A DNA stretch of 33,245 bases from Fimicolochytrium jonesii (GCF_025526975.1 NW_026515685.1:558001-591245), one strand, 5' to 3'; positions 1,319 through 30,965 are shown, counted from the stretch's first letter. The notes: generated by a model from the sequence alone, not told the origin. Translations and numbers: made by a program.

Positions 1319-2538
1319 CTACTCCCTCGGATAAAGCACATCATAATGGCCCGGCCGATATAGCAACACCACCTCCTTCTTTCCCTCCTGCACGTCCAAC
1401 GGCTCCAACGGTTCTATCTCATGGTAATTGACAGTCCCTGACGAATCGGTAAGCGTCGGGTCAAGGTTGGCGATGCGGACGGTGACGCCTAGGGCGGTGG
1501 CGATGGCTACTATGTGGGGTTGGTCGGCTTCGATGTTCACTTTGGGGGGGAATGGGGGTGGTTAGCAGAGCGTGAAGGGGAGGAGAGAGCAGAGGGATGG
1601 GCACTCACTAGGCTCAACTTGAGAGGAGATGAAGAGGTCGAGGGAGGGGTAGCTGTCTAGGATGAAGGCTTCGAAGAGGTCTCGGTTCTAGCAACGGTGC
1701 GATGTGTGATGAGAAAATTTTCCCATCGCTTCTTCCCATGCCGCACCCCACACCGCACCATAACCCACCTTCTTCAAAACAGCAGCAGTGACCAATCTCA
1801 AATAACACACAATCGTATCACTCACATACTCCGTCCGCATCTTCTCCAACAACGTTTCCCCACCCTCCCCACCCTCCGTCTGTCCTCCCTCTTCCCCCAC
1901 CGGCCTTAACACCCCCTCAAAAACCTCCCAAAAATCCTCCAGCAACCCCACATCATACCCGACCTCGCCCAGCACGCCCCTTGTCCCCTCCGCCCGCTTC
2001 ACAACAGCCTTCGCCCAGGGTGTGTCGGAATGTTGATGTAAGAGCTCGCAGAGACGGAAGGAGAAAGCCCGGTAGAAGCAGTTACCGTCGCGTTTTGCGG
2101 TGCGGATGCCTGTGCTGGTTGAGGAGAGGTTGTGGGCTTTGGAGAGGAAGACTGGGGAGAGGGCGTATTCCTACATGAATAGACATACATTAGTATCTGA
2201 TGGGGAATGGACAAGGGAATTTCGGGACGTACGGCTAATAATCCATCAAACCCTGTCACATCGCCAATGAGAGGTGTATCCCCGACCTCGGCGGCTTTGA
2301 TTGCTTTTTCGTATTGAAGGATCTCTTCGTCTGTGGGGCGGTCGTAGGCTGGTGGTGGTGCGTTTGCTGAGGAGGAAAGATGCGTTGGTAGTTGAGGATG
2401 GGTTAGCGGATGCGGATGGGATGGATTCGTCGGTTGGTGGCATTTTGACGGTCCGGAGTGGGTGGGAGCGCTGTCTGCTGGATTTGATGTGGGTGAGAAT
2501 TGAGGTGGATGTTCTCTAGATGCAGAGGTCGATGTCAT
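1319..2538 (-). CDS. Otubain-family OTU deubiquitinase (peptidase C65), multi-exon
   Basis: Catalytic loop RDGNCFYRAF read on the minus strand at about 2063-2092; SDTIVCYLRLVTAA; EADQPHIVAIATALGV; C-terminal His box LLYRPGHYDVLY. Start codon and some exon borders are approximate. Confidence 0.9.
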
Positions 2539-3437: not shown

Positions 3438-4213
<776 letters not shown>

Positions 4214-5847
4214 GGTTTTTGTGTTTTTCCCGGTTTGTTGGTCACTCAAGGGGCGGTCGATAGCTTTTTTGGTCTGGAAATGCACGTGAACGGTAAAGTG
4301 AGCACTTCGTCAGAAAAGGCTTGAAATAGTTTGAAAGTGAAAGTCGGGTGTTTGGCGTGAGAGAATGCGATTCAAACGAATGCGGATGTCGGTCTAGCGA
4401 CCCGTCACAGCGGCCGCTCCACACACGCGCCAAGGCGTTTCCTTCCCTCATGATAGTCCCTGCACTCGGTGTTTCCACGCAACAACAGCAATCCCCGAAA
4501 ATATCACGGGAGGAGGGTTTGCATACCCAACCGTGCGCGATAGTCCGATTCGAAAACGCTAATCCCCGCCAAGTTTGGTGTTTGGCGTTTCCCACGGCCG
4601 ACAAGGAGACACTCACCGGATAATTGACAAGATGAGGGGGGCAAGTGACAGCGCTCTCTCTTTGGCGGGTGCTGATGGAATTAAAGCCCGTATATTCTCT
4701 ACACTCACAGACGGTGGCAGTAACGACCAAATTCTGCAAAAAAAAACAGGTCTCAGGTTAAAGACAGGGACGCGCGGGACCAGCGGCAGTTGTTAAAGTG
4801 GGCGTTTTCACCTATTGAGATATTGGTTCCAGACTGTAGGTGCTTCTGTGAAGGTGTTTTATCCGACCAGCGGCTAGACTCCGGGAGAAAAGGTGATTTG
4901 CGGGGTCTGAAGTGTCTGTGATTTGATAGCCGATGTCTGTCTCTGGTTCCTCTTCAGCGGGCGACGGACGGAGAGAGAGCTTCCTGAGAGGCGTTCTTTT
5001 TGGTCGCGTAACGCCGCAAATCGATTTAGAGCGGCCGCATATGCTGCAGCATTCATTAAGGAGGCTAATCACGGAAGTCGCCCATTCTCCCCCATTGATT
5101 TAGCGCCGTGATCAGAACGCCCATTTTGGACAGCTGCGTCATGGCGTCCTGTTGATAAGAATTGCGAGGCCATGGCGTAAGCAACTCAGCGTGTTCTCCT
5201 GTTGGAGTGGAAGACAGACCGGTTAGGGTTACAGCATCCCCCTGGTATGGCACGTAAATTTGTTCCTTGCCAGTGCTGTCTATCAGGGCTCCCAAAAACC
5301 GCATCACCGCAGTCCTTTCCTGAATCATCGTCTTGCTTCCTCTCAGCATCCGAGACATCAAGTCAGCCTGAAAAGACCTGCATCTTCTCTCGCAAAAAAC
5401 AACGCTATAGGTAAGAGTGTGCGACGCGCAAACGTCCTCAGTTTGGGCGACAGATCATATCCATCTCGCCTTGTCCTTCTTTCCCACGCTCCCGCCACTC
5501 ACATATCAACAACCCTGAAAACGCTAGCTCTAAACGGAGGGTCTCTACTTTTGGAACCACCTGTAGTACAGAAACACCATGAGCCGAGGATCGAGCTGTA
5601 AGTCGTGTCTTCGCTGCCAGCTGGGAATTCTAGTTACGTAGAGGTGGATAGTCCTAACCTGCGAATTTACGCTCGCTCTCAGCCGCCTACGATAGGCATA
5701 TCACTGTCTTCTCCCCTGAGGGATGACTATACCAAGTCGGTAGGTTGGACGATTAAGGTTTTGTGAGTCTCGTACATTTCTGTACAACACGGCCTGAGGT
5801 GAAGATCCATTTTACTAATAAATCAATATCAAAAGCACAAGTCTACT

Positions 5848-8800
5848 CTACACTCGCTTGGGCCCAGGAGCCGATTCAGCAGATCCAGAGGCAGGCGGTG
5901 CCTTCGATTTCGCCGCTAGTCTCCACTTGGCGCCATTGATCATGACTGTAACGACGAGACCAGCTGCCACCCAGGCGATGATGGAAACTGTGAGGAAGGA
6001 TTTCCAATAGCCAACTTCATCTACAAAAGGTTCAATGACAGCTGACCCGACGGCTGCTGCTGGATTGCGGAAGAGACTGTTCAGAGCCACGACTCCCGCG
6101 GCGGATCCGGGAAAGCTATCGATGAGATAGGTCGTGTTGCAGGAGAAGGTCCATGTAAGACCAAAGACACCTATGATCCGAGCAAGAGGACGAGAGCTCG
6201 TCAGTAAACGGCCATGGTTCTCGTCCCCGAGAAGCCATGATAGGGAAATGTACTTACTTATAAACATGGTCAAGAAAAGCACGGCAACATGCCAACGGAA
6301 CGAAGCTGCGAATCCAAACAGGAGTACGCCGAAAGGGAAAAGCACGAGGCCTACCCATTGGCAGCGCACCCGCGTCTCCGGAACAGGTTGACCTTCGGAT
6401 CTCTTGAGGGCGGCTTTTACCGTGCGATCCGCGTAACGGCCCGCGACATTGGATCCCAAAATGAAACCCAATCCGACAGGAATGTAGGAAAGACCCACTT
6501 GCGCCTCGTTATATCCGTACTCGTTCTGGAGGATGACAGGGATAGAGACATTGAAGCAGTAAAACGATCCTAATTCGAGAGAGGAATGCTTGCGATCAGA
6601 AACCCCGTGGTTGGATGAAAACGTCCGATGAGGATTGCGCCACCTACCGAATAAAATGGCAATGTAACTGAGACACAGTACAATGGAAGTGAACCTAAGG
6701 AACTTGAGAGGGGCCAAAGGGTTGTAACGAGCCCTGGACGGATCCCAAGGCTTCATGAGCGGGGCGGGAACAACGATCCACCCTCGTTCCGCGTACGCCT
6801 TCCCGTTCCCAGCCCTAGCTCGGAGCGTCTCTGGCAGAAAGAAAAATATAGCCACCCAGAGGGCGACGCCCAGACCCGCAAGGAACCAAAAGATGGCCTT
6901 CCATCCGGCATAGCGCGCCAAGAAACCCCCAATCAGCGGCCCGATCAACGGTCCGAGTTGAGGCCCCAAAAGAAAGATCCCCATGGCCTGACCACGCTCG
7001 GTGGGCTTGAAAAGATCCACGAGCGTACCCCCTCCAAGGGACTGCACTGATGCGGCACCGGTGGCTTGCAAGAGGCGGAACACGATCAGGTACGCGTACG
7101 AGTTTGTGAACGCAAGTGCGATACTTCCGGCCACGTAGACTGCGAATGAAATGAGATAGACGGCACGGCGACCTGTTCGATCGGCAAGTGATCCCCATCC
7201 CAGCGGCTGTGAAAAGACAAGTTGTACGAAGATGCTCAGATCGGATGCATGAATGAGGTTGATAAACATGGAGAAATGGGGCCGCACGTACCGCGACAGC
7301 GAACATCAACATGAAAATGGAAACGCTGATGTTGATCATCGAGGCGCTGGCATTTAAACTTTGCCCAATGGGTACCATCGCTGGCAACTTGAAACATGGC
7401 GTCAGTGAGTAAAGTGGCCAAGCGGTCAGGCACTTTCACCGCTAATGACCCCTTACATAGATGTTTCCTGCAAGTGGTCCAAGAGCCCCTGCCAACGCCA
7501 CGAGAGCCAACAGACAGTAGCGTCGAGTAGGGGAATATGCACAATAGGGCTCGACGGCTGTTGTTGTCGACGGCGTAGGAGGTCTAGGCCGAGGGGCGGG
7601 CGGTTTTTCATCCTTGAGGGGCACGATATCTGCCTTCACACTGCTAATATGCACGGTAGCTTCTGATATGGACTGCCCCATCGGCGCAAGGGTCTGGGGA
7701 ATGTTGGCTTCGGTTGCGACGTCTGCGGCGTCCCTGAAGATCTCGGTTGCTGTGGAAGGTTCAACCGTGGGTGTAGCGTCTTGTATCGACGACAAGCTGT
7801 CAATCAGCAAGTGGCTAGGTCTTCCATCATCGTAATGAACAACTTGCGGCTCCTCCCCATTGGCGTATCGGGTAGCTTCCGCCCTGGCCATAATGGCGCA
7901 ACGCCCTTGGCGGTCCATCACAACAACATTGTGCCAAGGGGTCGGGATGTGCAAGCTCGTGCTGCCTTCGAAGGCAGGGATGAACGCGTCTTTCGCCAAG
8001 AAGCTACGATGAATAAGCCTCACCCCGAATTTGGGGCCCTCACACGAATGCCCGTGAACGGAGATGCGGAGATGCAATGGGAACAACAGCTCTACCAAAG
8101 CGGAGTAAGCTTGATTGCGGATCATCATCTCGAACGCGATCTTGGTGCAGAGCTTCTTCTGGGCGCTCTTGGAAGGGAGGGCTTGCATTTCAGGCATGTG
8201 ACGCAAATCATCGAGCAAAAAGCGAGAGAAGGCGCGGTACAGCGCCGTCGTAACATGGTCGCTCGCAATGTCCTTGCGCAGGATCGAGCGAGAACTGCCG
8301 GCAAGGACGCATAGGAGTCGACGCGTCTCGTCCGCGATGGGGTTGGTGTCGGCTTGGAGGTGGTGTTCCACTGAGACGGCATACTGCGACGGAAGCTCTG
8401 ATTCGATTCTTGACGCGGACTCCATTACGGAGCGATCCGGGGCGTTGGAATCGGGGAAAGTCATGTCTCTGAGATCGAAGAAGCTGAATAATTCCGGGCG
8501 GCCTGTGGATTGCACGACTTGGGATCTCAGCGTTGCACCGTATTCGTTGACGTTGGCATCAGGTACACCGACTGAGCAAGACAGGATATCAGTCACAATG
8601 GTGATGGGACATTGCACTCAATAACCTTCGGCCACTTACTCAAGTCACTGAACACATGGCCGTCTGACACAATGACAAACTTGGCGCCAGGCGCGTATAC
8701 TTCTCGGATAAGATCTCCGATCGTTACCATCGAAGCGAGAGCAAGCTCTTCCCCTTTGTCAGGGAGATGCCCGAGAACTTTGTCGGCGGCGTTGGGGGAC

Positions 8801-9432
8801 TTGCAAGGGAACCCGGGAAGCATGAATGGAAGTGCCAGATTGCGTTCGATGAAGAAGGCGAGCTTCCTGCCAAAGTGCTCTCGACCCCTGGGATCCCACA
8901 TGTCGATGATGGGCTTGTACCGAAACTCCGAGTCAAAAATGTTCAGAACGGCGTCGACGGTGATTTTGGACTCGGCCGCCGCGGCTTGGAGGCACCATGG
9001 CACCACATGACTTTTGGTGAGCAGGATCCGCGCCAGATACTCCAGAACTGCCGGTTCGCTTTGATCGAGACGGAACAGCGCCGCGCCTTGCACCACGCGG
9101 GAATCAGAGCCATCTCCTGCAGCTCGTTCAAAGATGATCACGGTTTTGGTTTCCGGCGATGTCGGTGAAGCAAGGTCAACCTGATAGGTGTTGATCGCGC
9201 CGTTCTTGCCCAGCGTTTGTCGCCTTCCGATCGAAGCAGCCTCTGCAGAGTGCGGCTCAAGCAGCATCGAGAGGTTCTCTACTTTTCGGGATCCGGCGTC
9301 GTAGGAATAAGCTGCAAAGTGATTTAGGATGCCGAACTCGTCGCAGACATAGCAGAAGGCGACGGCATTGGTAGGGGCGCGATTCTCGGGGTCCGAAGGA
9401 AGCGCAAGAATGGCTTGGTACGGTTCGTTCAT
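5848..9432 (-). CDS. Fusion gene: Dit1/PvcA-family isocyanide synthase (N-terminal) plus DHA1-type MFS transporter (Dtr1-like, C-terminal)
   Basis: Synthase motifs LPGFPCKSPN, LGHLPDKGEELAL, SDGHVFSDL|IGV (intron 8572-8639), RISVH and HIPTPWHN. The same frame continues without a stop into LLALVALAGALGPLAGNIY, then intron 7388-7456 to LPAMVPIGQSL, intron 7207-7291 to PLGWGSLADRTGRR, then ERGQAMGIF...GPLIGPLIGGFL and WKAIFWFL. Two further introns are likely near 6570-6647 and 6170-6260. Stop at 5848. Confidence 0.88.
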
Positions 9433-10173: not shown

Positions 10174-10403
10174 ACGCGTGCATCCGAACGCGTGCAATAT
10201 GCCAACATGCGGGATTTCTGCCCAATCAGAAAGTTCTGTGTTTATGAGACGCCATGAGGATGATGAGGCCCCTCATGCCAACTTGCGTTGATTGACCCCA
10301 CATGCGGCATTTCTGCCCAATCAGAAAGTTCTGGACGAGGCGTGTGCGCATTTCGTGGAATGTGTTGTGGCCCCAAACCCAAAACTAAAACGCGTCGACG
10401 CGT
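10174..10403. promoter_or_regulatory. Motif cluster in the divergent intergenic region: four ACGCGT sites and a duplicated 34-bp CCAAT-containing element
   Basis: ACGCGT at 10174, 10188, 10390 and 10398. ACATGCGG(G/C)ATTTCTGCCCAATCAGAAAGTTCTG at 10205-10238 and 10300-10333. Regulatory function is inferred from position only. Confidence 0.45.
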
Positions 10404-10816: not shown

Positions 10817-12904
10817 ATGGAACACTCCGCCGGCGTCGAGGAAGGAGGTGAACAGCGATACCGGGTAGAGAAAGGAGATTCTGCAACCGTCGTAGAAGTT
10901 CATGAGGTGAAGGCTTCCGACACTCGCATCTTCCTCATTGTTGCCATGTAGGTTTGAGAAGGGTGCGGCACACATATTGCGGCTCCTTTATCGTCCATCA
11001 ACGGATTTCATGCCCTCCATCTTGTTAACCGCCCGCCATTTCCCTGCCATTACACAGCGTCACCCTATCCTATGTCATCGTCAACCTCGATGGTTCCTCA
11101 GCGGCCCTCTCAACGATCGGCAAGGCGTTGAACGCTTCGGCGCTCCAACTAGCCTGGGTCTACAATGCCTTCACTCTGCTCTCCACTCCGCTGATTCCCT
11201 TGTGGAGTAAGCTGGCGGACGCTTTCGGCCAGAGGAACATTGTTCTCTTCGGTTTGATTACCTTCCTTGCCGGATCCGCCGGCGCGGGCGCTGCGTCCAG
11301 CATGGCTGTACTCGGCATCTTCCGTGGTGTGCAAGGCCTCGGAAACTCGGCCATCGTTGCCATGTCCCTCGTCATTTTCACTGGTAAGATGCAGATCAAG
11401 ACGCTGTTTGTTTTCTTTTCTCAGAAACGTAGAAAGATTGACTTCATGGCTTTACGACACAGAGTATTACCCGATCCATAAGCGCGGCTTCGCATTCAAC
11501 ATTATCGGTGCCGCCATGGGTTTCACTATGGTAGGAAGGATTCGCATCAAAGCGCAGATGCTGTAACACTTTTCTCACATCTATTGGTTGATAGATCCTC
11601 GGCCCCATCGTGGGCGGATCTATTACCGACAATGCTTCCATGGGATGGCGCTGGAGCTATTGGATTCTTCTGCCACTCACCGGCCTGCTGTTCCCGCTTC
11701 CTGCCATTGTGTCCGGCAAGGCGGACGGAGCAAATTACAAACCCCTCAAGAACATGGACTACCTCGGCTTCATTACACTGGTTGGCACTACCGCATGCAT
11801 CTTGCTTGCCCTTGCATGGGGTGGTAAACAGTACAACTGGGCCTCCGGCCAAATCATTGGCCTCTTCGTCGCTGGAGGAGTCTTCGCTGCCTTGTTCATT
11901 CTCGTAAGTCTCGATAGTCGCAGGATTAGCGGGCGCAGCTGGTGTCTCATACCCGCTCCATCATAGGTTGAGATATTCGTCGCCAAAGAACCCGTTTTCC
12001 CGCCTTACATGTTCCGATCGCTCAACAACAACGCCGTCTTTGGTAAGAGCGGTGCTCCCACGTAGCTCTCGTACCAACAGAATGATTCCTAAAGCCTAAT
12101 ACGCTTCTTCCATTTGTTAGTCATGAACTTTTTCCAAGGTGGTGCGGCAATGGCTTTCATGATGTTTGGACCGATGTATTATAAAGGGGACCTTAAAGAT
12201 ACAGCTCTTCAATCCGCCGTGGACGTCACCCTGGCCATCAACCTCGCCTGGATGGTTTTCGGTATCATCTCCTCTCAGCTCCTCCGCTACGTGCCGGCGA
12301 ACATTCTGGTCATCATCGGGACGGGCTTGACGACGATCGGCACTGGCTTGTTTTCTCTCGCCATTTCTCAAGGGGTGCCTAGCAAGGGCGTTGCCGCCAT
12401 CTACCTCATCATCTTTGGTGCGGGCCAAGGTCTGTCAACCCAGAACTCGTTCCTCATTGCCCAGGCCCACTTGGAGAAAAAGCAAGACTCCAAGTTGATG
12501 TCCAACATTCCCGTCTATTTCCATCGTGTTGGGGGAAGTATCCTCGTTGCGATTTTGTCCGCTATTTACAGTCACGAGAATTCCGCCGCTGCCGCTGCCG
12601 CAATGCCGTCCGGTAGCGGAAACATGGTGAGTCCTCGCTGCATCAGTTACTTTCCTTCCTCCCATTGTAAACCATTGACCGTCTTTCCCACTTTATAAAG
12701 GCCAGCACGGGTATGGACATGGGCGGCGGTTCAACCTCCAACTCCACGATGCCGGCAAGCGGTTCCGCTATGCGCATGGGCAACTCGCGGCCCGGAACAA
12801 CAGCCGCCTTCCGGTGGGCCATTCTGTTCGCTGGGCTCTCCTTCTTGGCGTCCTTTGCTCTCAAGAAGACCTGGATTATCGCTGGCACACGCATGTCCCA
12901 CTAG
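10817..12904 (+). CDS. DHA2-type (14-TMS drug:H+ antiporter-like) MFS transporter, multi-exon
   Basis: Probable ATG at 10817 with a first intron joining in frame to VTLSYVIVNLD...; WVYNAFTLLSTPLIPLWSKLADAFGQR; FRGVQGLG; GGSITDNASMGWRWSYWI; DYLG...LALAWGGKQYNWASG; stop at 12902-12904. Confidence 0.85.
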
Positions 12905-25484: not shown

Positions 25485-26891
25485 TGTTATGAATGGGCGG
25501 AGCCGACGGAAATAGAGGCTACTTGTGGTGCAGGTTGTTGACAGGTAATGGTATTCAGACCGAAACAAGAACTAGAACAAGACTAGAAAGAACTGGTGTT
25601 GATCTGCTGGGGGATCAGGAAGTGGGGAGCTCAGGGGAGGCGGCTATTTATGTTTTTCTGGGAAGGCTGGGGAAGCGTGGGGAAGCAGAAGGGTACGGAA
25701 TGAGAGGGAAGCCAAGAGAAGCGCCAAGGGTGGGGAAGCATAGAAACAGAAGACTGGGGATGGGGTGGCTACGCTGAGGCTGTGGGCGGGTACGTGGGGA
25801 AGTATGGAGAAGGGTTTGTAAGCGCCGAGTGTTGGGAGGTGTGGCTACGTGCGGCTGCGTGGAGAAATGAAGGCAGTGGCAGGTGTGGGGTAGCGCGGCT
25901 GCGTGCGGCTGCGAGGTTTGGCAGATGTCTGGTTTTGACAGGGAATTGACATTGACTGACTGTTGGGATGCTGTCATGAGGTAAGCGCATGGTATGGACG
26001 CGTCGTCCATAACATCACCCCCTCCTTTAGCCACGGCGTCCGGATGTTGTTTTGATGTTGGCAGGCTTTGGTCGGGGTTTGTCGGGGTACTTTTGGTGGA
26101 ACTGGGCAACAAGCTCTTGACAGCGGGCAAGGTGTTCCACTGGCTCCCATGTGTTCTCCGAGCTTGGCCAACCCTGCCACTTGATGAGGTACTGAAGGTG
26201 CGTGCGTCGAATACGGGAGTCAAGAATGTCTTCCACAATCCATTCCTCCTGTCCTTCGACTTCTTCTGGTGGGGTGGGTTCTGGCTCAGTTTGCTCCGGA
26301 ATGGTGAAACGTGGTTCAAGAAGGGAGACATGGAAGACGTTGTGAATTTTGTAGGATGGGGGAAGCTTGAGGCGATATGTGACCGAGTTGATCTTCTCCG
26401 TGATTGTGAAGGGGCCAATCTTACGGTGATCAAGTTTCTGGGAAGGTCGGAGAGTCTTGAGATTCCGCTGTAAGAGCCAGACACTGTCCCCGGGTTTCAT
26501 GTCTGGGCCAGGTGCCCTCTTAGGATCGGCAAAGCGCTTCATGCGTCCTTGGGCCTCCTTGAGCTCAGTGGCAAGCTGTTCATGGATTTCCTTGAGATGG
26601 TTGGCACGAGCTTCGGCTGCAGGATTAAGGGATTCGGTTGTGGTGGCGGAAGCCAGACTGAATCGAGGATGGAACCCATAGTTGGCGTAGAAGGGGGTTG
26701 TCTGGGTGGCGGAGTGGATGGTGTTATTGTAAGAGAACTCAGCAGAAGACAAGAGTTCCTTCCAGTTATCTTGTTGATAGTTGCAAAAGCAGCGAAGGTA
26801 TTGCTCAAGAATCTGATTGGTCCGCTCGGTTTGTCCATCGCTCTGGGGATGGAACGCCGATGAGAGGTTGACCTTGGTTCCCAGGAGAGCG
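25485..26891 (-). mobile_element. 3' part of a Ty3/gypsy chromovirus, truncated by telomere repeats; 3' LTR 25485-26014
   Basis: LTR bounded by the perfect inverted repeat TGTTATG...CATAACA; PPT AAAGGAGGGGGTGA; inserted into the copia RNase H. Confidence 0.92.
26027..26891 (-). pseudogene. Integrase C-terminal part plus chromodomain (5'-truncated pol)
   Basis: SSAFHPQSDGQTERTNQILEQYLR; AEFSYNN...TPFYANYGFHP; GPF...HNVFHVSLL; chromodomain WIVEDILDSR...YLIKWQGWPSSENTWEP. Confidence 0.93.
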
Positions 26892-29588
26892 AGGGTTAGG
26901 GTTAGGGTTAGGGTTAGGGTTAGGGTTAGGGTTAGGGTTACAAGACCCCCTGGGTTGGGTTTTATTATTGGGTTGCCTTGAACCCTAGGGACTTAGAAAT
27001 TTTCGAGTTTTCTGGCTTTTGGGTGTGTTCTACAGTTCGAATTTTTGACTCTGAGGGATGTAGTGGCGGGGGGTGTTGCGCACCTAGGCAAGTCGGGGAG
27101 GACTAGGTGTGCAAGGGCAAGTGATGGGTCATATGGGCGGTGGTGCGGGTACGGGGGGCGGCAGGGGTGCCAATAGGGGGGGGGGGTTTGATATAAAGGG
27201 GACATATATGTTATATATACGTTATAGGACTTGTGCAAATTGGGATTCTTATAGTGCCGATCCGGAGTTGGCGTCCTAATTGAAAAGTTGGACCCATATC
27301 ATATTCTCTAATTGAAGTACTCTCGGATTGGGTTAGGGTTAGGGTTAGGGTTAGGGTTAGGGTTACAGGACTGTTCCCGGTTATGGGTTATTTTTGGCCA
27401 TCCAAAAAGTGTCAAACAAAGTTGCTAGCAATGTTCAGGGGCATCTTACTGTAATGTGCTTCAAATTTTGGGGCATGTTTTCCACTCAATGCCCCGGGAA
27501 AATCTGTTTTTCCGATTTTTTACTATGAAAATATTGCCAAAATGCATTTTCTGAAACTCTGAGTGGATGGATTCCGCTTAAAGTGGAATATGTCTCGGAA
27601 AACATCCCCAAAAACATCTAGGAACCTTCATCTACTCTAGTATTCATCAACTCCTGGGTTAGGGTTAGGGTTACAGGACTGTTCCCGGTTATGGGTTATT
27701 TTTGGCCATCCAAAAAGTGTCAAATAAAGTTGCTAGCAATGTTCAGGGGCATCTTACAGTAATGTGCCTCAAATTTTGGGGCATGTTTTCCACTCAATGC
27801 CCCAGGAAAATCTGTTTTTCCGATTTTTTACCATGAAAATATTGCCAAAATGCATTTTCTGAAACTCTGAGTGGATGGATTTCGCTTAAAGTGAGATATG
27901 TCTCAGAAAACATCCCAAAAACATCTAGGAACCTTCATCTACTCTAGTATTCATCAACTCCTGGTACTTTTTGTTTCCAGGCAATATGGGGGTGTTCTCC
28001 AGTTGGCAGCAAATGACCCATTTTGGTTTGCTCTCAATTTGCTCCATGTTCAAATCCTTTTAAGGCCCAAATACTTTCTTTTCTTCCATTGCTCCTCCTG
28101 TTGGTGGAGGATGGCAAATGCCTTTTTGCATTGCAATACATGGATATGACAGGGTGTTTGTCAACCAGCAAATCATGCAAAAAGCATGCAGTGCATGTCT
28201 ATTTGCATGCCCTATGTCATCCGTACCACCTTGGACACCCAAGGAAAGGTATGCGGACTCAAAAGAAAATATACTTACGGAAGTGGAACCAGGGAGATTC
28301 AATGACTATTTAACGAGCTATGGCACACGTAAGTTCCCAGGAGTGGGACTTAGCACAATTTGAGAAAACATATCAGAGGAACTGGAGAACACACTCTTAG
28401 GGTTAGGGTTACAAGACCCCCTGGGTTGGGTTTTATTTTTGGGTTGCCTGGAACCCTAGGGACTTAGAAATTTTCGAGTTTTTTGGCTTTTGGGTGTGTT
28501 CTACAGTTCAAATTCTTTTAGGGTTAGGGTTAGGGTTAGGGTTAGGGTTACAAGACCCCCTGGGTTGGGTTTTATTATTGGGTTGCCTGGAACCCTAGGG
28601 ACTTAGAAATTTTCGAGTTTTCTGGCTTTTGGGTGTGTTCTACAGTTCGAATTTTTGACTCTGAGGGATGTAGTGGCGGGGGGGTGTTGCGCACCTAGGC
28701 AAGTCGGGGAGGACTAGGTGTGCAAGGGCAAGTGATGGGTCATATGGGCGGTGGTGCGGGTACGGGGGGCGGCAGGGGTGCCAATAGGGGGGGGGGGGGG
28801 TTGATGTAAAGGGGACATATATGTTATATATACGTTATAGGACTTGTGCAAATTGGGATTCTTATAGTGCCGATCCGGAGTTGGCGTCCTAATTGAAAAG
28901 TTGGACCCATATCATATTCTCTAATTGAAGTACTCTCGGATTGGCAATCCGTGCGGAAACGGCTTCAGAAACTTAGAAAAACGAAATTTTCACGCGACGG
29001 GGGGTAAAAAGTTGGAAAATGTGGTGATATCTCAACATCTGGCTGACTATCCAGTGTAGGGCACTTAATGAAAGTTGATTGTAGCCTATGGTTTGCATAG
29101 CTGATGTGGTAGCAAATCTTGTGTAACCTTGCTTTTGGCTGAAGAACAGGGCCCCTTTTCAATTCTCAAGTAGTGACCCCCAAGACCTCCTAACAAAAGA
29201 CACGAGTACGTATGTGCAGGCAAAGGGGTTTGGCTGTGTTCTCCAGTAAACATTTTGTGATTCCGCTGTGCATCGTAGACTGTTTGTAGGACCGTTGCGG
29301 AATGTCATTTACCAAAACTGTTAAACATTTTCCGTTTAAAGCAGTGTTCTACAGTTTGTCCATGCAGGTTAGAGCACGTGACCTGGGCTTGCTTGCAGGG
29401 TACGCAGAGTGAGAGGGTTGGGGTTAGAGATTTCCCAGATCACTTATTAAATTCAGCCAAACTGTCTCTGTCATGGAACATTTAAAATGGTGGAAAGTAG
29501 TATTGCATTTATTGATTTAGAGTACATTGGAAAAGCGCACATTCAGAAAAGGGTTTTGGTGTAAAGTTATCAACGACATTCAACAGTA

Positions 29589-30962
29589 CTAAAGGACTTC
29601 CGCAAGCATGTCACGGACTTGGTTCTGTCCAAAAGTCGTACGGCACTCAGGGTACCTGGCGCAGCGGAGACGGAAACGATGCTGACCGCCAATGCTATGA
29701 AAAGCTGAGCCTCCACAGTTGGGACATTGAAGCTGATCACGATGCTGATGGAAGAGTTCACGGATATTGCCAATGGGAGCAGCATCAGGCACTTCCCCAT
29801 CCCCATGACCCCACCAAGCACGAGCAGGATCAATGACGGGTGCAATGCCTTTGAACCATCCGGGATTGAAACCAAAAGAGTTGAGAACATCTCGGAAGCG
29901 CTGACAGTCTGTCACAGTAGTCTGTCTATTGCGATCTCCTCTGAATAGAACTCTGGTGGCAGCGTCCATGATGCCATTGATGAGACTGTAGTACTCTTCC
30001 ACCGGCACAAGCTTCAAGGAGTTTGCGCCCATGTGCTGGAAAATGGTCTCGATCTGGTCCAAATGGAGATTCAAAACCATCTGTTCTGCTGATTCCAACC
30101 TGGCGCACTGAACTCGCACTTCAACTCGCATGCCAGTAATGTGGAGCGGGTGACTGTTGAGCCATTGACGTAAACCTCTCAGTGTCTCACTGCGATCCCC
30201 AATGCTGGACTTGGTTTGGGGCATTCGCGAAGACAAAGTCGAAGAAGAGGCTTTGAGCGCATGAACAAGCTTTGGGTAGCAAGTAACCCGAACATTGGCG
30301 TGACCCGCAATGTCAAAGCGGGTGGACCCAAATCCCTCACCAAGGATGGTGAGCATGGGAAAGGTGGCGCCAACTCCACGTCCATTGTAGCGAACCAAAG
30401 GAATGACCCCATGAGTGTTCAACGTCTGACCAATGTCCCATGTGTTCAGTGCAGCATCGGGATGGTTGCTCACTTCCTGATCAAAGGAATAAGCTGGCAA
30501 AGTCCGAATGCGTTGCTTCATTCCATACTGCACAATGCGTACAGAGGGTGACACAGCACCAATGATGTCCTGGAACCCAGACATCAACAGATTTTGCCGC
30601 CCAGCAATCAATCGTGAGTGATCCGTGCTTTCCCTCACGATGATCGAATGTTCATTGTGAAGTAACTCAAGAATCCTTGCCTTTGACTCTGGATTGAATG
30701 GAATGCTAATGACACAAGGTCTGCTAGCGATCCGCATCCAACCGGCGAAAGCTTCACTGTCCTTGATATGCTGCATCACTCCAGACAGTTCAACCAAGGT
30801 GAAGGCACCAAAGAGGGTGGTCAGCTTTGTGGTAGGGAGCGTAAAGGCCATCCAGTCCACATCAAAGTAGCCAGTACTGCGAAAGACCCCAAACTGCTCA
30901 TCCTGAGGGGCAGGAGAGTGATGGTGTTCCTCATCTGAAGAGCTTGAGCGAGAAGTTGGCAA
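29589..30962 (-). CDS. Unknown protein with a C-terminal C4 zinc ribbon, within the longest A unit; possibly 5'-truncated
   Basis: 457 codons without a stop or obvious intron; CPNC...RLRCARYPEC; AATAAA on the minus strand at about 29508-29513. The frame opens immediately at the telomere junction with a non-ATG codon. Confidence 0.75.
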   Translation of the reverse strand: MPTSRSSSSDEEHHHSPAPQDEQFGVFRSTGYFDVDWMAFTLPTTKLTTLFGAFTLVELSGVMQHIKDSEAFAGWMRIASRPCVISIPFNPESKARILELLHNEHSIIVRESTDHSRLIAGRQNLLMSGFQDIIGAVSPSVRIVQYGMKQRIRTLPAYSFDQEVSNHPDAALNTWDIGQTLNTHGVIPLVRYNGRGVGATFPMLTILGEGFGSTRFDIAGHANVRVTCYPKLVHALKASSSTLSSRMPQTKSSIGDRSETLRGLRQWLNSHPLHITGMRVEVRVQCARLESAEQMVLNLHLDQIETIFQHMGANSLKLVPVEEYYSLINGIMDAATRVLFRGDRNRQTTVTDCQRFRDVLNSFGFNPGWFKGIAPVIDPARAWWGHGDGEVPDAAPIGNIRELFHQHRDQLQCPNCGGSAFHSIGGQHRFRLRCARYPECRTTFGQNQVRDMLAEVL

Positions 30963-30965
30963 CTC

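What the first reader, a model, noticed from the sequence alone, without database searches (positions are those of the whole stretch)
5848..9432. Isocyanide synthase fused to its probable exporter (Dit1-Dtr1-like single polypeptide)
Seen: no stop between HIPTPWHN and the first MFS helix, a Pro/Thr-rich linker of roughly 90 aa, and splicing that rebuilds the DHA1 motif NIYLPA. Known: in Saccharomyces, Dit1, Dit2 and the MFS Dtr1 are separate proteins that make and export formyl-dityrosine for the spore wall. Inference: a membrane-tethered enzyme channelling a reactive isocyanide or formamide to export. I cannot say whether this fusion has already been reported.
Basis: partly seen in the sequence, partly recalled or inferred. 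Interest (0 to 1): 0.72.

Follow-up and report, generated by a model that had tools for sequence, protein, structure and literature searches.

The report
Chytrid dityrosine enzyme fused to exporter
In chytrid fungi, a gene like the one for the first enzyme of yeast's dityrosine spore-wall pathway runs in one reading frame into its likely exporter, beside a gene like the second enzyme, so these early-branching fungi likely carry a pathway so far described only in ascomycetes.

Summary
A 6-exon minus-strand gene (9432-5848, 1065 aa) joins a Dit1-type ICS domain to a 12-helix DHA1 MFS through a stop-free linker that scores as coding and has no splice donor. NCBI splits it into a partial ICS and an MFS starting at Met562; both equal my model letter for letter. 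Fused relatives occur in four chytrid orders, and three have no Met in the linker. All three genes branch as sisters of ascomycete Dit1, Dit2 and Dtr1, with moderate support and few P450 outgroups. Direct channelling is doubtful, because yeast Dtr1 exports the Dit2 product; co-location and co-expression fit better. Two surveys recognise only three ICS architectures and place dit clusters in Ascomycota, though one lists this domain pair unremarked in a supplement. No transcript or biochemical evidence. New variant of a known kind.

The parts
5848..9432 (-). Dit1-Dtr1 fusion gene, 6 exons, 1065 aa
8983..9432 (-). N-terminal beta-rich domain, aa 1-150, shared with chytrid and Selaginella Dit1-type proteins; no Pfam hit
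   Evidence: 35% identity to P0001; E 4e-6 to Selaginella P0128; strands in the P0001 model
7799..8982 (-). Dit1/PvcA (ICS-fold) domain, aa 151-522, interrupted by intron 8639-8572
   Evidence: PF05141 E 5e-28 and 3e-40; 45 of 46 columns conserved in >=90% of 146 ICS domains are kept, N441 is C; PvcA/PIsnA matches
7553..7798 (-). Linker, aa 523-604, stop-free, scores as coding, holds Met562 (codon at 7681-7679)
5920..7552 (-). DHA1 MFS domain of the Dtr1 group, aa 605-1042, 12 predicted helices, introns 7456-7388, 7291-7207, 6647-6570, 6257-6171
   Evidence: PF07690; tree; AF2 model of P0001; best PDB sequence match for P0001 is Qdr2
10817..12904 (+). Second MFS gene (DHA2/TRI12-like by appearance), 7 exons, 539 aa, divergent from the fusion
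   Evidence: model; PF07690; an MFS_1+TRI12 gene holds the same slot in Spizellomyces
13634..15809 (+). Dit2-like cytochrome P450, 9 exons, 485 aa, intact, heme motif FAEGGRKCLG
   Evidence: 33-36% identity to the P450 halves of 10 predicted P450-Dit1 proteins; B-C loop 61-72%; 280 bits from a dit-locus P450 against 86 for its best PDB P450

Best explanation
This gene encodes, in one reading frame, a Dit1-type enzyme joined by a loose linker to a Dtr1-type 12-helix exporter, and with the neighbouring Dit2-like P450 it likely makes N,N'-bisformyl-dityrosine (or a close relative) and exports it, probably to harden a chytrid cyst or resting-spore wall. Shown: one spliced frame, both domains intact, conservation across four chytrid orders, and an intact Dit2-like gene beside it. 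Inferred from established MFS topology: the N-terminal enzyme faces the cytosol. Inferred from yeast: Dit1 turns L-tyrosine into unstable N-formyl (or isocyano) tyrosine, Dit2 couples two of them, and the Dtr1 domain exports the dimer. The tether would fix 1:1 co-expression and keep the unstable product near the membrane where export happens, rather than form a tunnel.
For: Gene model and linker statistics. Both halves occur in 8 of 382 proteins held: Spizellomyces punctatus, S. 'palustris', Borealophlyctis, Cladochytrium tenue (2), Irineochytrium and 2 near-identical ENA proteins. A Zopfochytrium 'MFS' begins with the ICS tail motif DGRPSH, the only non-ICS protein of 384 with it. Orders. ICS tree: chytrid+Selaginella group 91/95, ascomycete Dit1 clade 99/97, the two joined 100/99 against TauD-type outgroups (30 of 55 rows). 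MFS tree: chytrid clade 95, ascomycete Dtr1/DtrA clade 100, joined 99 (SH-aLRT only). 24 residues are shared with the Dtr1 group against 7 shared with the other MFS. The P450 is sister to 13 dit-locus P450s at 91. Same domain order in S. punctatus: KNC96350 ICS+MFS, 96351 MFS/TRI12, 96352 p450. Separate dit1, P450 and Dtr1-like genes co-occur in 3 of 69 metagenome loci. A single origin of the fusion is not rejected (p-AU 0.41). Yeast and Coccidioides roles: PMC3744438, PMC7345447, PMC12077801.
Against: No transcript, peptide or biochemical evidence was obtained. NCBI annotates two genes here (KAI8819265.1 and KAI8819266.1). Some chytrid relatives are predicted unfused: Geranomyces ICS (same family as the source named for P0270) and a 478-aa Cladochytrium replicatum MFS nested in the fused MFS clade; these are real fissions or split models, unresolved. 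Fused ICS domains form one group in only 5% of bootstrap trees, and the Cladochytriales/Chytridiales subgroup (96) dissolved in the careful tree. The chytrid ICS group is below the 95 bootstrap star and has a basidiomycete ICS (Violaceomyces) as sister. The P450 tree has few outgroups, none of them a full-length fungal non-Dit2 P450, and warns of long branches. S. cerevisiae Dit1, Dit2 and Dtr1 themselves were not in the trees. Predicted fusions can be merge artefacts: P0009 has an unrelated C-terminal extension. Product and wall role rest on homology alone.
Confidence: 0.62

Rival explanations
1. Direct hand-off: the Dit1 domain passes its unstable monomer straight to its own MFS, which exports it for cross-linking or metal binding outside. 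Dit2 and the second MFS handle a parallel dimer route.
For: The Dit1 product is unstable in lysate and must be used at once (PMC7345447 results and discussion). Step 1 is fused to the exporter, not to Dit2. A second MFS sits in the cluster here and in Spizellomyces.
Against: Yeast Dtr1 exports dityrosine. The MFS keeps Dtr1-group residues. The linker is 54-106 aa, unconserved, with pLDDT mostly under 50 at 535-573.
Confidence: 0.17
2. The cluster makes a secreted isocyanide secondary metabolite (metal chelator or antimicrobial), not a wall polymer, and the two MFS genes give export and self-protection.
For: The ICS fold matches PvcA/PIsnA. About 60% of fungal ICS clusters carry an MFS (PMC10153163 passage). 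Nickles et al. leave open what dit clusters make outside yeasts (sections 23-24).
Against: All three genes group with the dit lineages rather than TauD-type ICS. No TauD, NRPS or hydratase hit appeared in the Pfam scans of window ORFs (23, 85; short exons can be missed). Deleting DIT1/DIT2/DTR1 in Coccidioides thins spore walls.
Confidence: 0.14
3. Two separate genes, or mainly a short MFS-only isoform from Met562, as NCBI annotates; the fusion is a gene-prediction outcome.
For: P0270 starts at Met562 and P0123 is listed apart. The chance of an open frame up to Met562 is 0.30. Some chytrid ICS and MFS proteins are predicted unfused.
Against: The ICS has no stop and no consensus donor before the MFS. 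The 117 nt before Met562 score as coding, above all 227 non-coding windows. P0123 lacks both start and stop. Fused relatives exist in four orders, and 3 of 5 checked have no Met in the linker.
Confidence: 0.07

Closest known systems
Saccharomyces DIT1 / DIT2 / DTR1 dityrosine pathway (ascomycete dit superfamily, Nickles et al., PMC10153163)
   Same: Dit1-type monodomain ICS, Dit2-like P450 and Dtr1-group DHA1 MFS; each chytrid gene branches as sister of its ascomycete counterpart; the P450 is transcribed divergently from Dit1, as in loci L033 and L053.
   Different: Dit1 and Dtr1 are one reading frame, whereas yeast Dit1 is a free cytosolic protein with no TM segment. A second MFS lies between dit1 and dit2. 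The host is a chytrid; the survey describes dit clusters only in Ascomycota.
Fungal ICS architectures: monodomain, ICS-TauD, ICS-NRPS-like (Lim 2018, PMC5974471; Nickles 2023)
   Same: PF05141 domain with the conserved motifs kept.
   Different: ICS-MFS is a fourth architecture. The preprint says all ICS matched one of three, yet its Table S4 lists DIT1_PvcA and MFS_1 on KNC96350.1 and TPX60882.1.
Spizellomyces punctatus KNC96350.1 ('multidrug resistance protein') and chytrid orthologues
   Same: Same fused architecture, 50% (ICS) and 64% (MFS) identity; same neighbour order MFS, P450.
   Different: Shorter linker (54 aa) with no Met; annotated under the name of one half only; no characterisation found in the searches run.
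PvcA / PIsnA isonitrile synthases (PDB 3E59, 9DH4, 9DHM)
   Same: Same fold: TM 0.84-0.89 by target length for the P0001 model; shared motifs PxFPxKSPN, PDxxE, SDGxVFxDL, RxSxH, KFG.
   Different: Soluble bacterial enzymes of about 320 aa, lacking the N-terminal domain and the transporter. PvcA does not rescue yeast dit1.

Membership tests
Dit1/PvcA (ICS) family | PF05141 above the gathering cut-off | tested here: met
   98.7 and 138.9 bits against a cut-off of 26.4
Dit1/PvcA (ICS) family | Conserved core residues retained | tested here: met
   45 of 46 columns conserved in >=90% of 146 ICS domains; N441 is C. A literature list of catalytic residues could not be read.
Dit1/PvcA (ICS) family | Makes isocyano- or formyl-tyrosine | not testable with these tools
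   Needs an assay; even yeast Dit1's product is disputed
dit superfamily cluster (Nickles 2023) | ICS in or beside the Dit1 clade | tested here: inconclusive
   Sister to the ascomycete Dit1 clade, not inside it; the two are joined 100/99 against TauD-type outgroups; fungal ICS-NRPS types were not sampled
dit superfamily cluster (Nickles 2023) | Co-located Dit2-clade P450 | tested here: met
   Intact P450 4.2 kb away; 280 bits against 86 for the best PDB P450; sister to dit-locus P450s at 91. Outgroups are few.
dit superfamily cluster (Nickles 2023) | dit1 and dit2 in the same orientation as in Saccharomycotina | tested here: inconclusive
   Divergent, as in L033 and L053, but with an MFS gene between them; the yeast arrangement was not fetched
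Dtr1 group of DHA1 MFS | 12 TM helices and DHA1 motifs | tested here: met
   12 long helices over 582-1024 in the P0001 model; motif A GSLADRTGRR and motif C GPLIGPLIGG in the window model (motif names recalled)
Dtr1 group of DHA1 MFS | Groups with Dtr1/DtrA-named proteins apart from the Qdr3 group | tested here: met
   Joined at SH-aLRT 99; names are the sources' own; S. cerevisiae Dtr1 was not in the tree
Dtr1 group of DHA1 MFS | Exports bisformyl-dityrosine | not testable with these tools
   Needs a transport or complementation assay
Three published ICS architectures | Monodomain, ICS-TauD or ICS-NRPS-like | tested here: not met
   ICS followed by an MFS domain in one frame

The most novel reading that the evidence does not exclude
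The full Dit1-Dit2-Dtr1 dityrosine module predates the split of chytrids from Dikarya. Chytrids fused the first enzyme to the exporter once, early, giving a membrane-tethered enzyme-transporter that builds a dityrosine layer in cysts or resting spores and solves the hand-off of Dit1's unstable product that is still open in yeast.
Probability: 0.35. Interest if true: 0.75.

Novelty: new variant of a known kind. Interest (0 to 1): 0.58.

Why it matters
It adds a fourth ICS architecture that two surveys did not recognise, and it moves the dit cluster out of the Ascomycota into an early-branching phylum, which bears on the age and origin of the pathway. In yeast, Dit1 is cytosolic, Dit2 is on the ER, they do not co-precipitate and the intermediate is unstable (PMC7345447), so how it is handed on is open. 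A natural Dit1-Dtr1 fusion makes that testable by comparing fused with split constructs. It predicts a dityrosine-type wall layer in chytrids, which is easy to look for by fluorescence and HPLC. It also corrects a split public annotation.

Tried and rejected
No whole genome is held for this window. The first AF2 model (pLDDT 88.7, pTM 0.59) used 61 rows of which only 8 were fused, so its low pTM says nothing firm about an interface. The second model on the 8 fused rows alone was poor (pLDDT 51.7) and was not used. My first P450 search used the wrong half of the query proteins and wrongly showed no P450; corrected. The metagenome scan gave 69 loci, none with a fused gene. The Atlas search on a P450 exon gave only generic P450 clusters. 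The shared 8-mer scan of promoters had no control and was not interpreted. The careful 55-row ICS tree did not finish; one search is the quick tree, and one search is a careful tree on 30 of the 55 rows. Paper searches that showed no report of the fusion or of a chytrid dit cluster. The published NAR version of Nickles et al., Felder 2002 and Drake & Gulick 2008 were not held. The preprint's media-1.pdf was unreadable and media-2.xlsx was cut when stored, so later tables (GCF assignments, Table S11) may mention the chytrid clusters. Earlier scan findings: nothing bearing on this.

Full report
Observation. The minus strand carries a six-exon gene from 9432 to 5848 with five GT..AG introns of 68-87 nt; splicing gives 1065 aa with no internal stop. 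Pfam finds DIT1_PvcA on exons 1-2 and MFS_1 on exons 4-5. Exon 2 runs from the ICS through an 87-residue linker into TM1, and intron 2 rebuilds NIYLPA. An open frame alone is weak (chance 0.08 over 82 codons). But the linker scores as coding only in frame, above all 197 non-coding windows, and it has no consensus donor or poly(A) hexamer. The ICS therefore has no visible way to end before the MFS.

Public annotation. Two adjacent NCBI proteins are exact substrings of the model: KAI8819266.1, a partial ICS (aa 151-482), and KAI8819265.1, an MFS that starts at Met562, which its source labels Fimicolochytrium jonesii. The ICS piece has neither start nor stop, so the split is best read as a prediction error. 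A minor MFS-only isoform is not excluded.

Conservation. Of 382 proteins held, 8 carry both halves: Spizellomyces punctatus, S. 'palustris', Borealophlyctis, Cladochytrium tenue (two), Irineochytrium and two near-identical ENA proteins. A Zopfochytrium 'MFS' starts with the ICS tail motif. These span Spizellomycetales, Rhizophlyctidales, Cladochytriales and Chytridiales. Identity to Spizellomyces is 50% in the ICS, 64% in the MFS and 9% in the linker. Linkers are 54-106 aa, and 3 of 5 checked have no Met. Against uniformity: Geranomyces and Phlyctochytrium ICS proteins and a Cladochytrium replicatum MFS are predicted unfused. The word-indexed searches scored only about 8000 candidates each, so the counts are lower bounds.

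Neighbourhood. A second MFS gene (10817-12904, +) and an intact nine-exon P450 (13634-15809, +) follow upstream of the fusion. The P450 is 33-36% identical to the P450 halves of ten predicted P450-Dit1 proteins, and 61-72% in the B-C loop. A P450 from a metagenomic dit locus scores 280 bits on it and 86 on its best PDB P450. Table S4 of PMC10153163 lists the same domain order in S. punctatus: ICS+MFS, MFS/TRI12, p450. Cdc42-like and otubain genes lie on one side, and a Ty3 gag on the other.

Phylogeny. ICS: the chytrid group with Selaginella (91/95), with a basidiomycete ICS beside it, is sister to the ascomycete Dit1 clade (99/97) (30 of 55 rows; quick 55-row tree). MFS: the chytrid clade (95) is sister to the ascomycete Dtr1/DtrA clade (100), joined at 99 and apart from the Qdr3 group. 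P450: sister to 13 dit-locus P450s (91), with few outgroups and a long-branch warning. The window groups with Spizellomyces and Borealophlyctis in both the ICS (99/97) and MFS (99) trees. One origin of the fusion is not rejected (p-AU 0.41) but not shown (5% of bootstrap trees). Three sister-type placements fit an old shared module; ancient transfer is not excluded. The S. cerevisiae proteins were not available for the trees.

Structure. AF2 on P0001 gives confident domains (mean pLDDT 88.7), a beta-rich N-terminal domain, 12 long helices in the MFS and a low-confidence linker. Foldseek matches PIsnA and PvcA first, then MFS transporters. The window ICS keeps 45 of 46 highly conserved columns. 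The interface question is left open.

Mechanism. In yeast, Dit1 and Dit2 make dityrosine in the cytoplasm and Dtr1 exports it (PMC3744438, passages). Dit1 is cytosolic, Dit2 is on the ER, they do not co-precipitate, the Dit1 product is unstable and PvcA does not rescue dit1 (PMC7345447, end of methods, results, discussion). Deleting DIT1/DIT2/DTR1 in Coccidioides thins spore walls (PMC12077801, passages). The fusion joins steps 1 and 3 while step 2 stays a separate gene. A tunnel from enzyme to transporter would bypass Dit2, so co-expression and co-location are the likelier gain (inference, 0.62). Rivals: monomer hand-off (0.17), a secreted isocyanide metabolite (0.14), separate genes (0.07).

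Novelty. Lim 2018 (PMC5974471, passages) and the Nickles preprint (abstract, passages, sections 17, 18, 23, 24 and searched rows of media-2.xlsx) recognise three ICS architectures. The preprint places dit clusters in Ascomycota; 'chytrid', 'Spizellomyces' and 'fusion' do not occur in its main text. Its Table S4 does list both domains on KNC96350.1 and TPX60882.1 without comment. Nine searches (listings only, apart from the papers named and passages of PMC11433233) showed no report of the fusion. The published NAR text, the preprint's PDF supplement and its later tables could not be seen and may bear on this.

Verdict. A real, conserved chytrid Dit1-Dtr1 fusion inside a likely dit cluster; new variant of a known kind; interest 0.58.

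Noticed in passing
P0128, P0267 (Selaginella moellendorffii): A lycophyte Dit1-like protein falls in the chytrid ICS group in both trees and shares the DGRPSH tail and N-terminal domain; possible fungus-to-plant transfer.
   Followed up: partly
P0012 (Phlyctochytrium arcticum), P0011 (Blyttiomyces, partial): These chytrid ICS proteins end in a hydrophobic helix after a linker. P0012 looks like a tail anchor or a cut TM1; P0011's resembles TM1 of another MFS type (recalled motif). Membrane tethering may recur.
   Followed up: partly
P0013, P0015, P0019, P0022, P0023, P0060, P0066, P0072, P0073, P0074: Ten predicted P450-then-Dit1 single proteins in Chaetomium-like fungi: real Dit2-Dit1 fusions or merged gene models; not checked at DNA level.
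   Followed up: no
P0024 (Magnusiomyces paraingens): Predicted Dit1 joined to a DJ-1/PfpI domain, the fold of isocyanide hydratases (recalled).
   Followed up: no
P0054 (Violaceomyces palustris): A basidiomycete Dit1-like ICS branches next to the chytrid group, while the preprint reports no dit cluster in Basidiomycetes.
   Followed up: no
window 19013-22521 (-): GmrSD restriction-endonuclease-like N- and C-terminal domains on separate ORFs in a fungal window; stops or introns lie between them.
   Followed up: no
window 16329-17852 (+) and 26027-26992 (-): Ty3/gypsy-type gag with zinc knuckle, and an integrase SH3/chromodomain fragment: retrotransposon remnants flanking the cluster.
   Followed up: no
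window 18247-18558 (-): Diverged histone-fold fragment, Pfam Histone E 1.6e-11; looks H3-like.
   Followed up: partly
window 3441-4309 (-) and 1322-2170 (-): Ras-family gene with a Cdc42-like N-terminus (recalled motif) and an otubain gene downstream of the fusion.
   Followed up: no
window 29589-30965 (-): 458-aa uninterrupted ORF with no Pfam hit and a C-terminal Cys-pair motif.
   Followed up: no
window 10210-10235 and 10306-10331: A repeated stretch of about 25 nt in the divergent promoter between the fusion and the second MFS, seen by eye.
   Followed up: no
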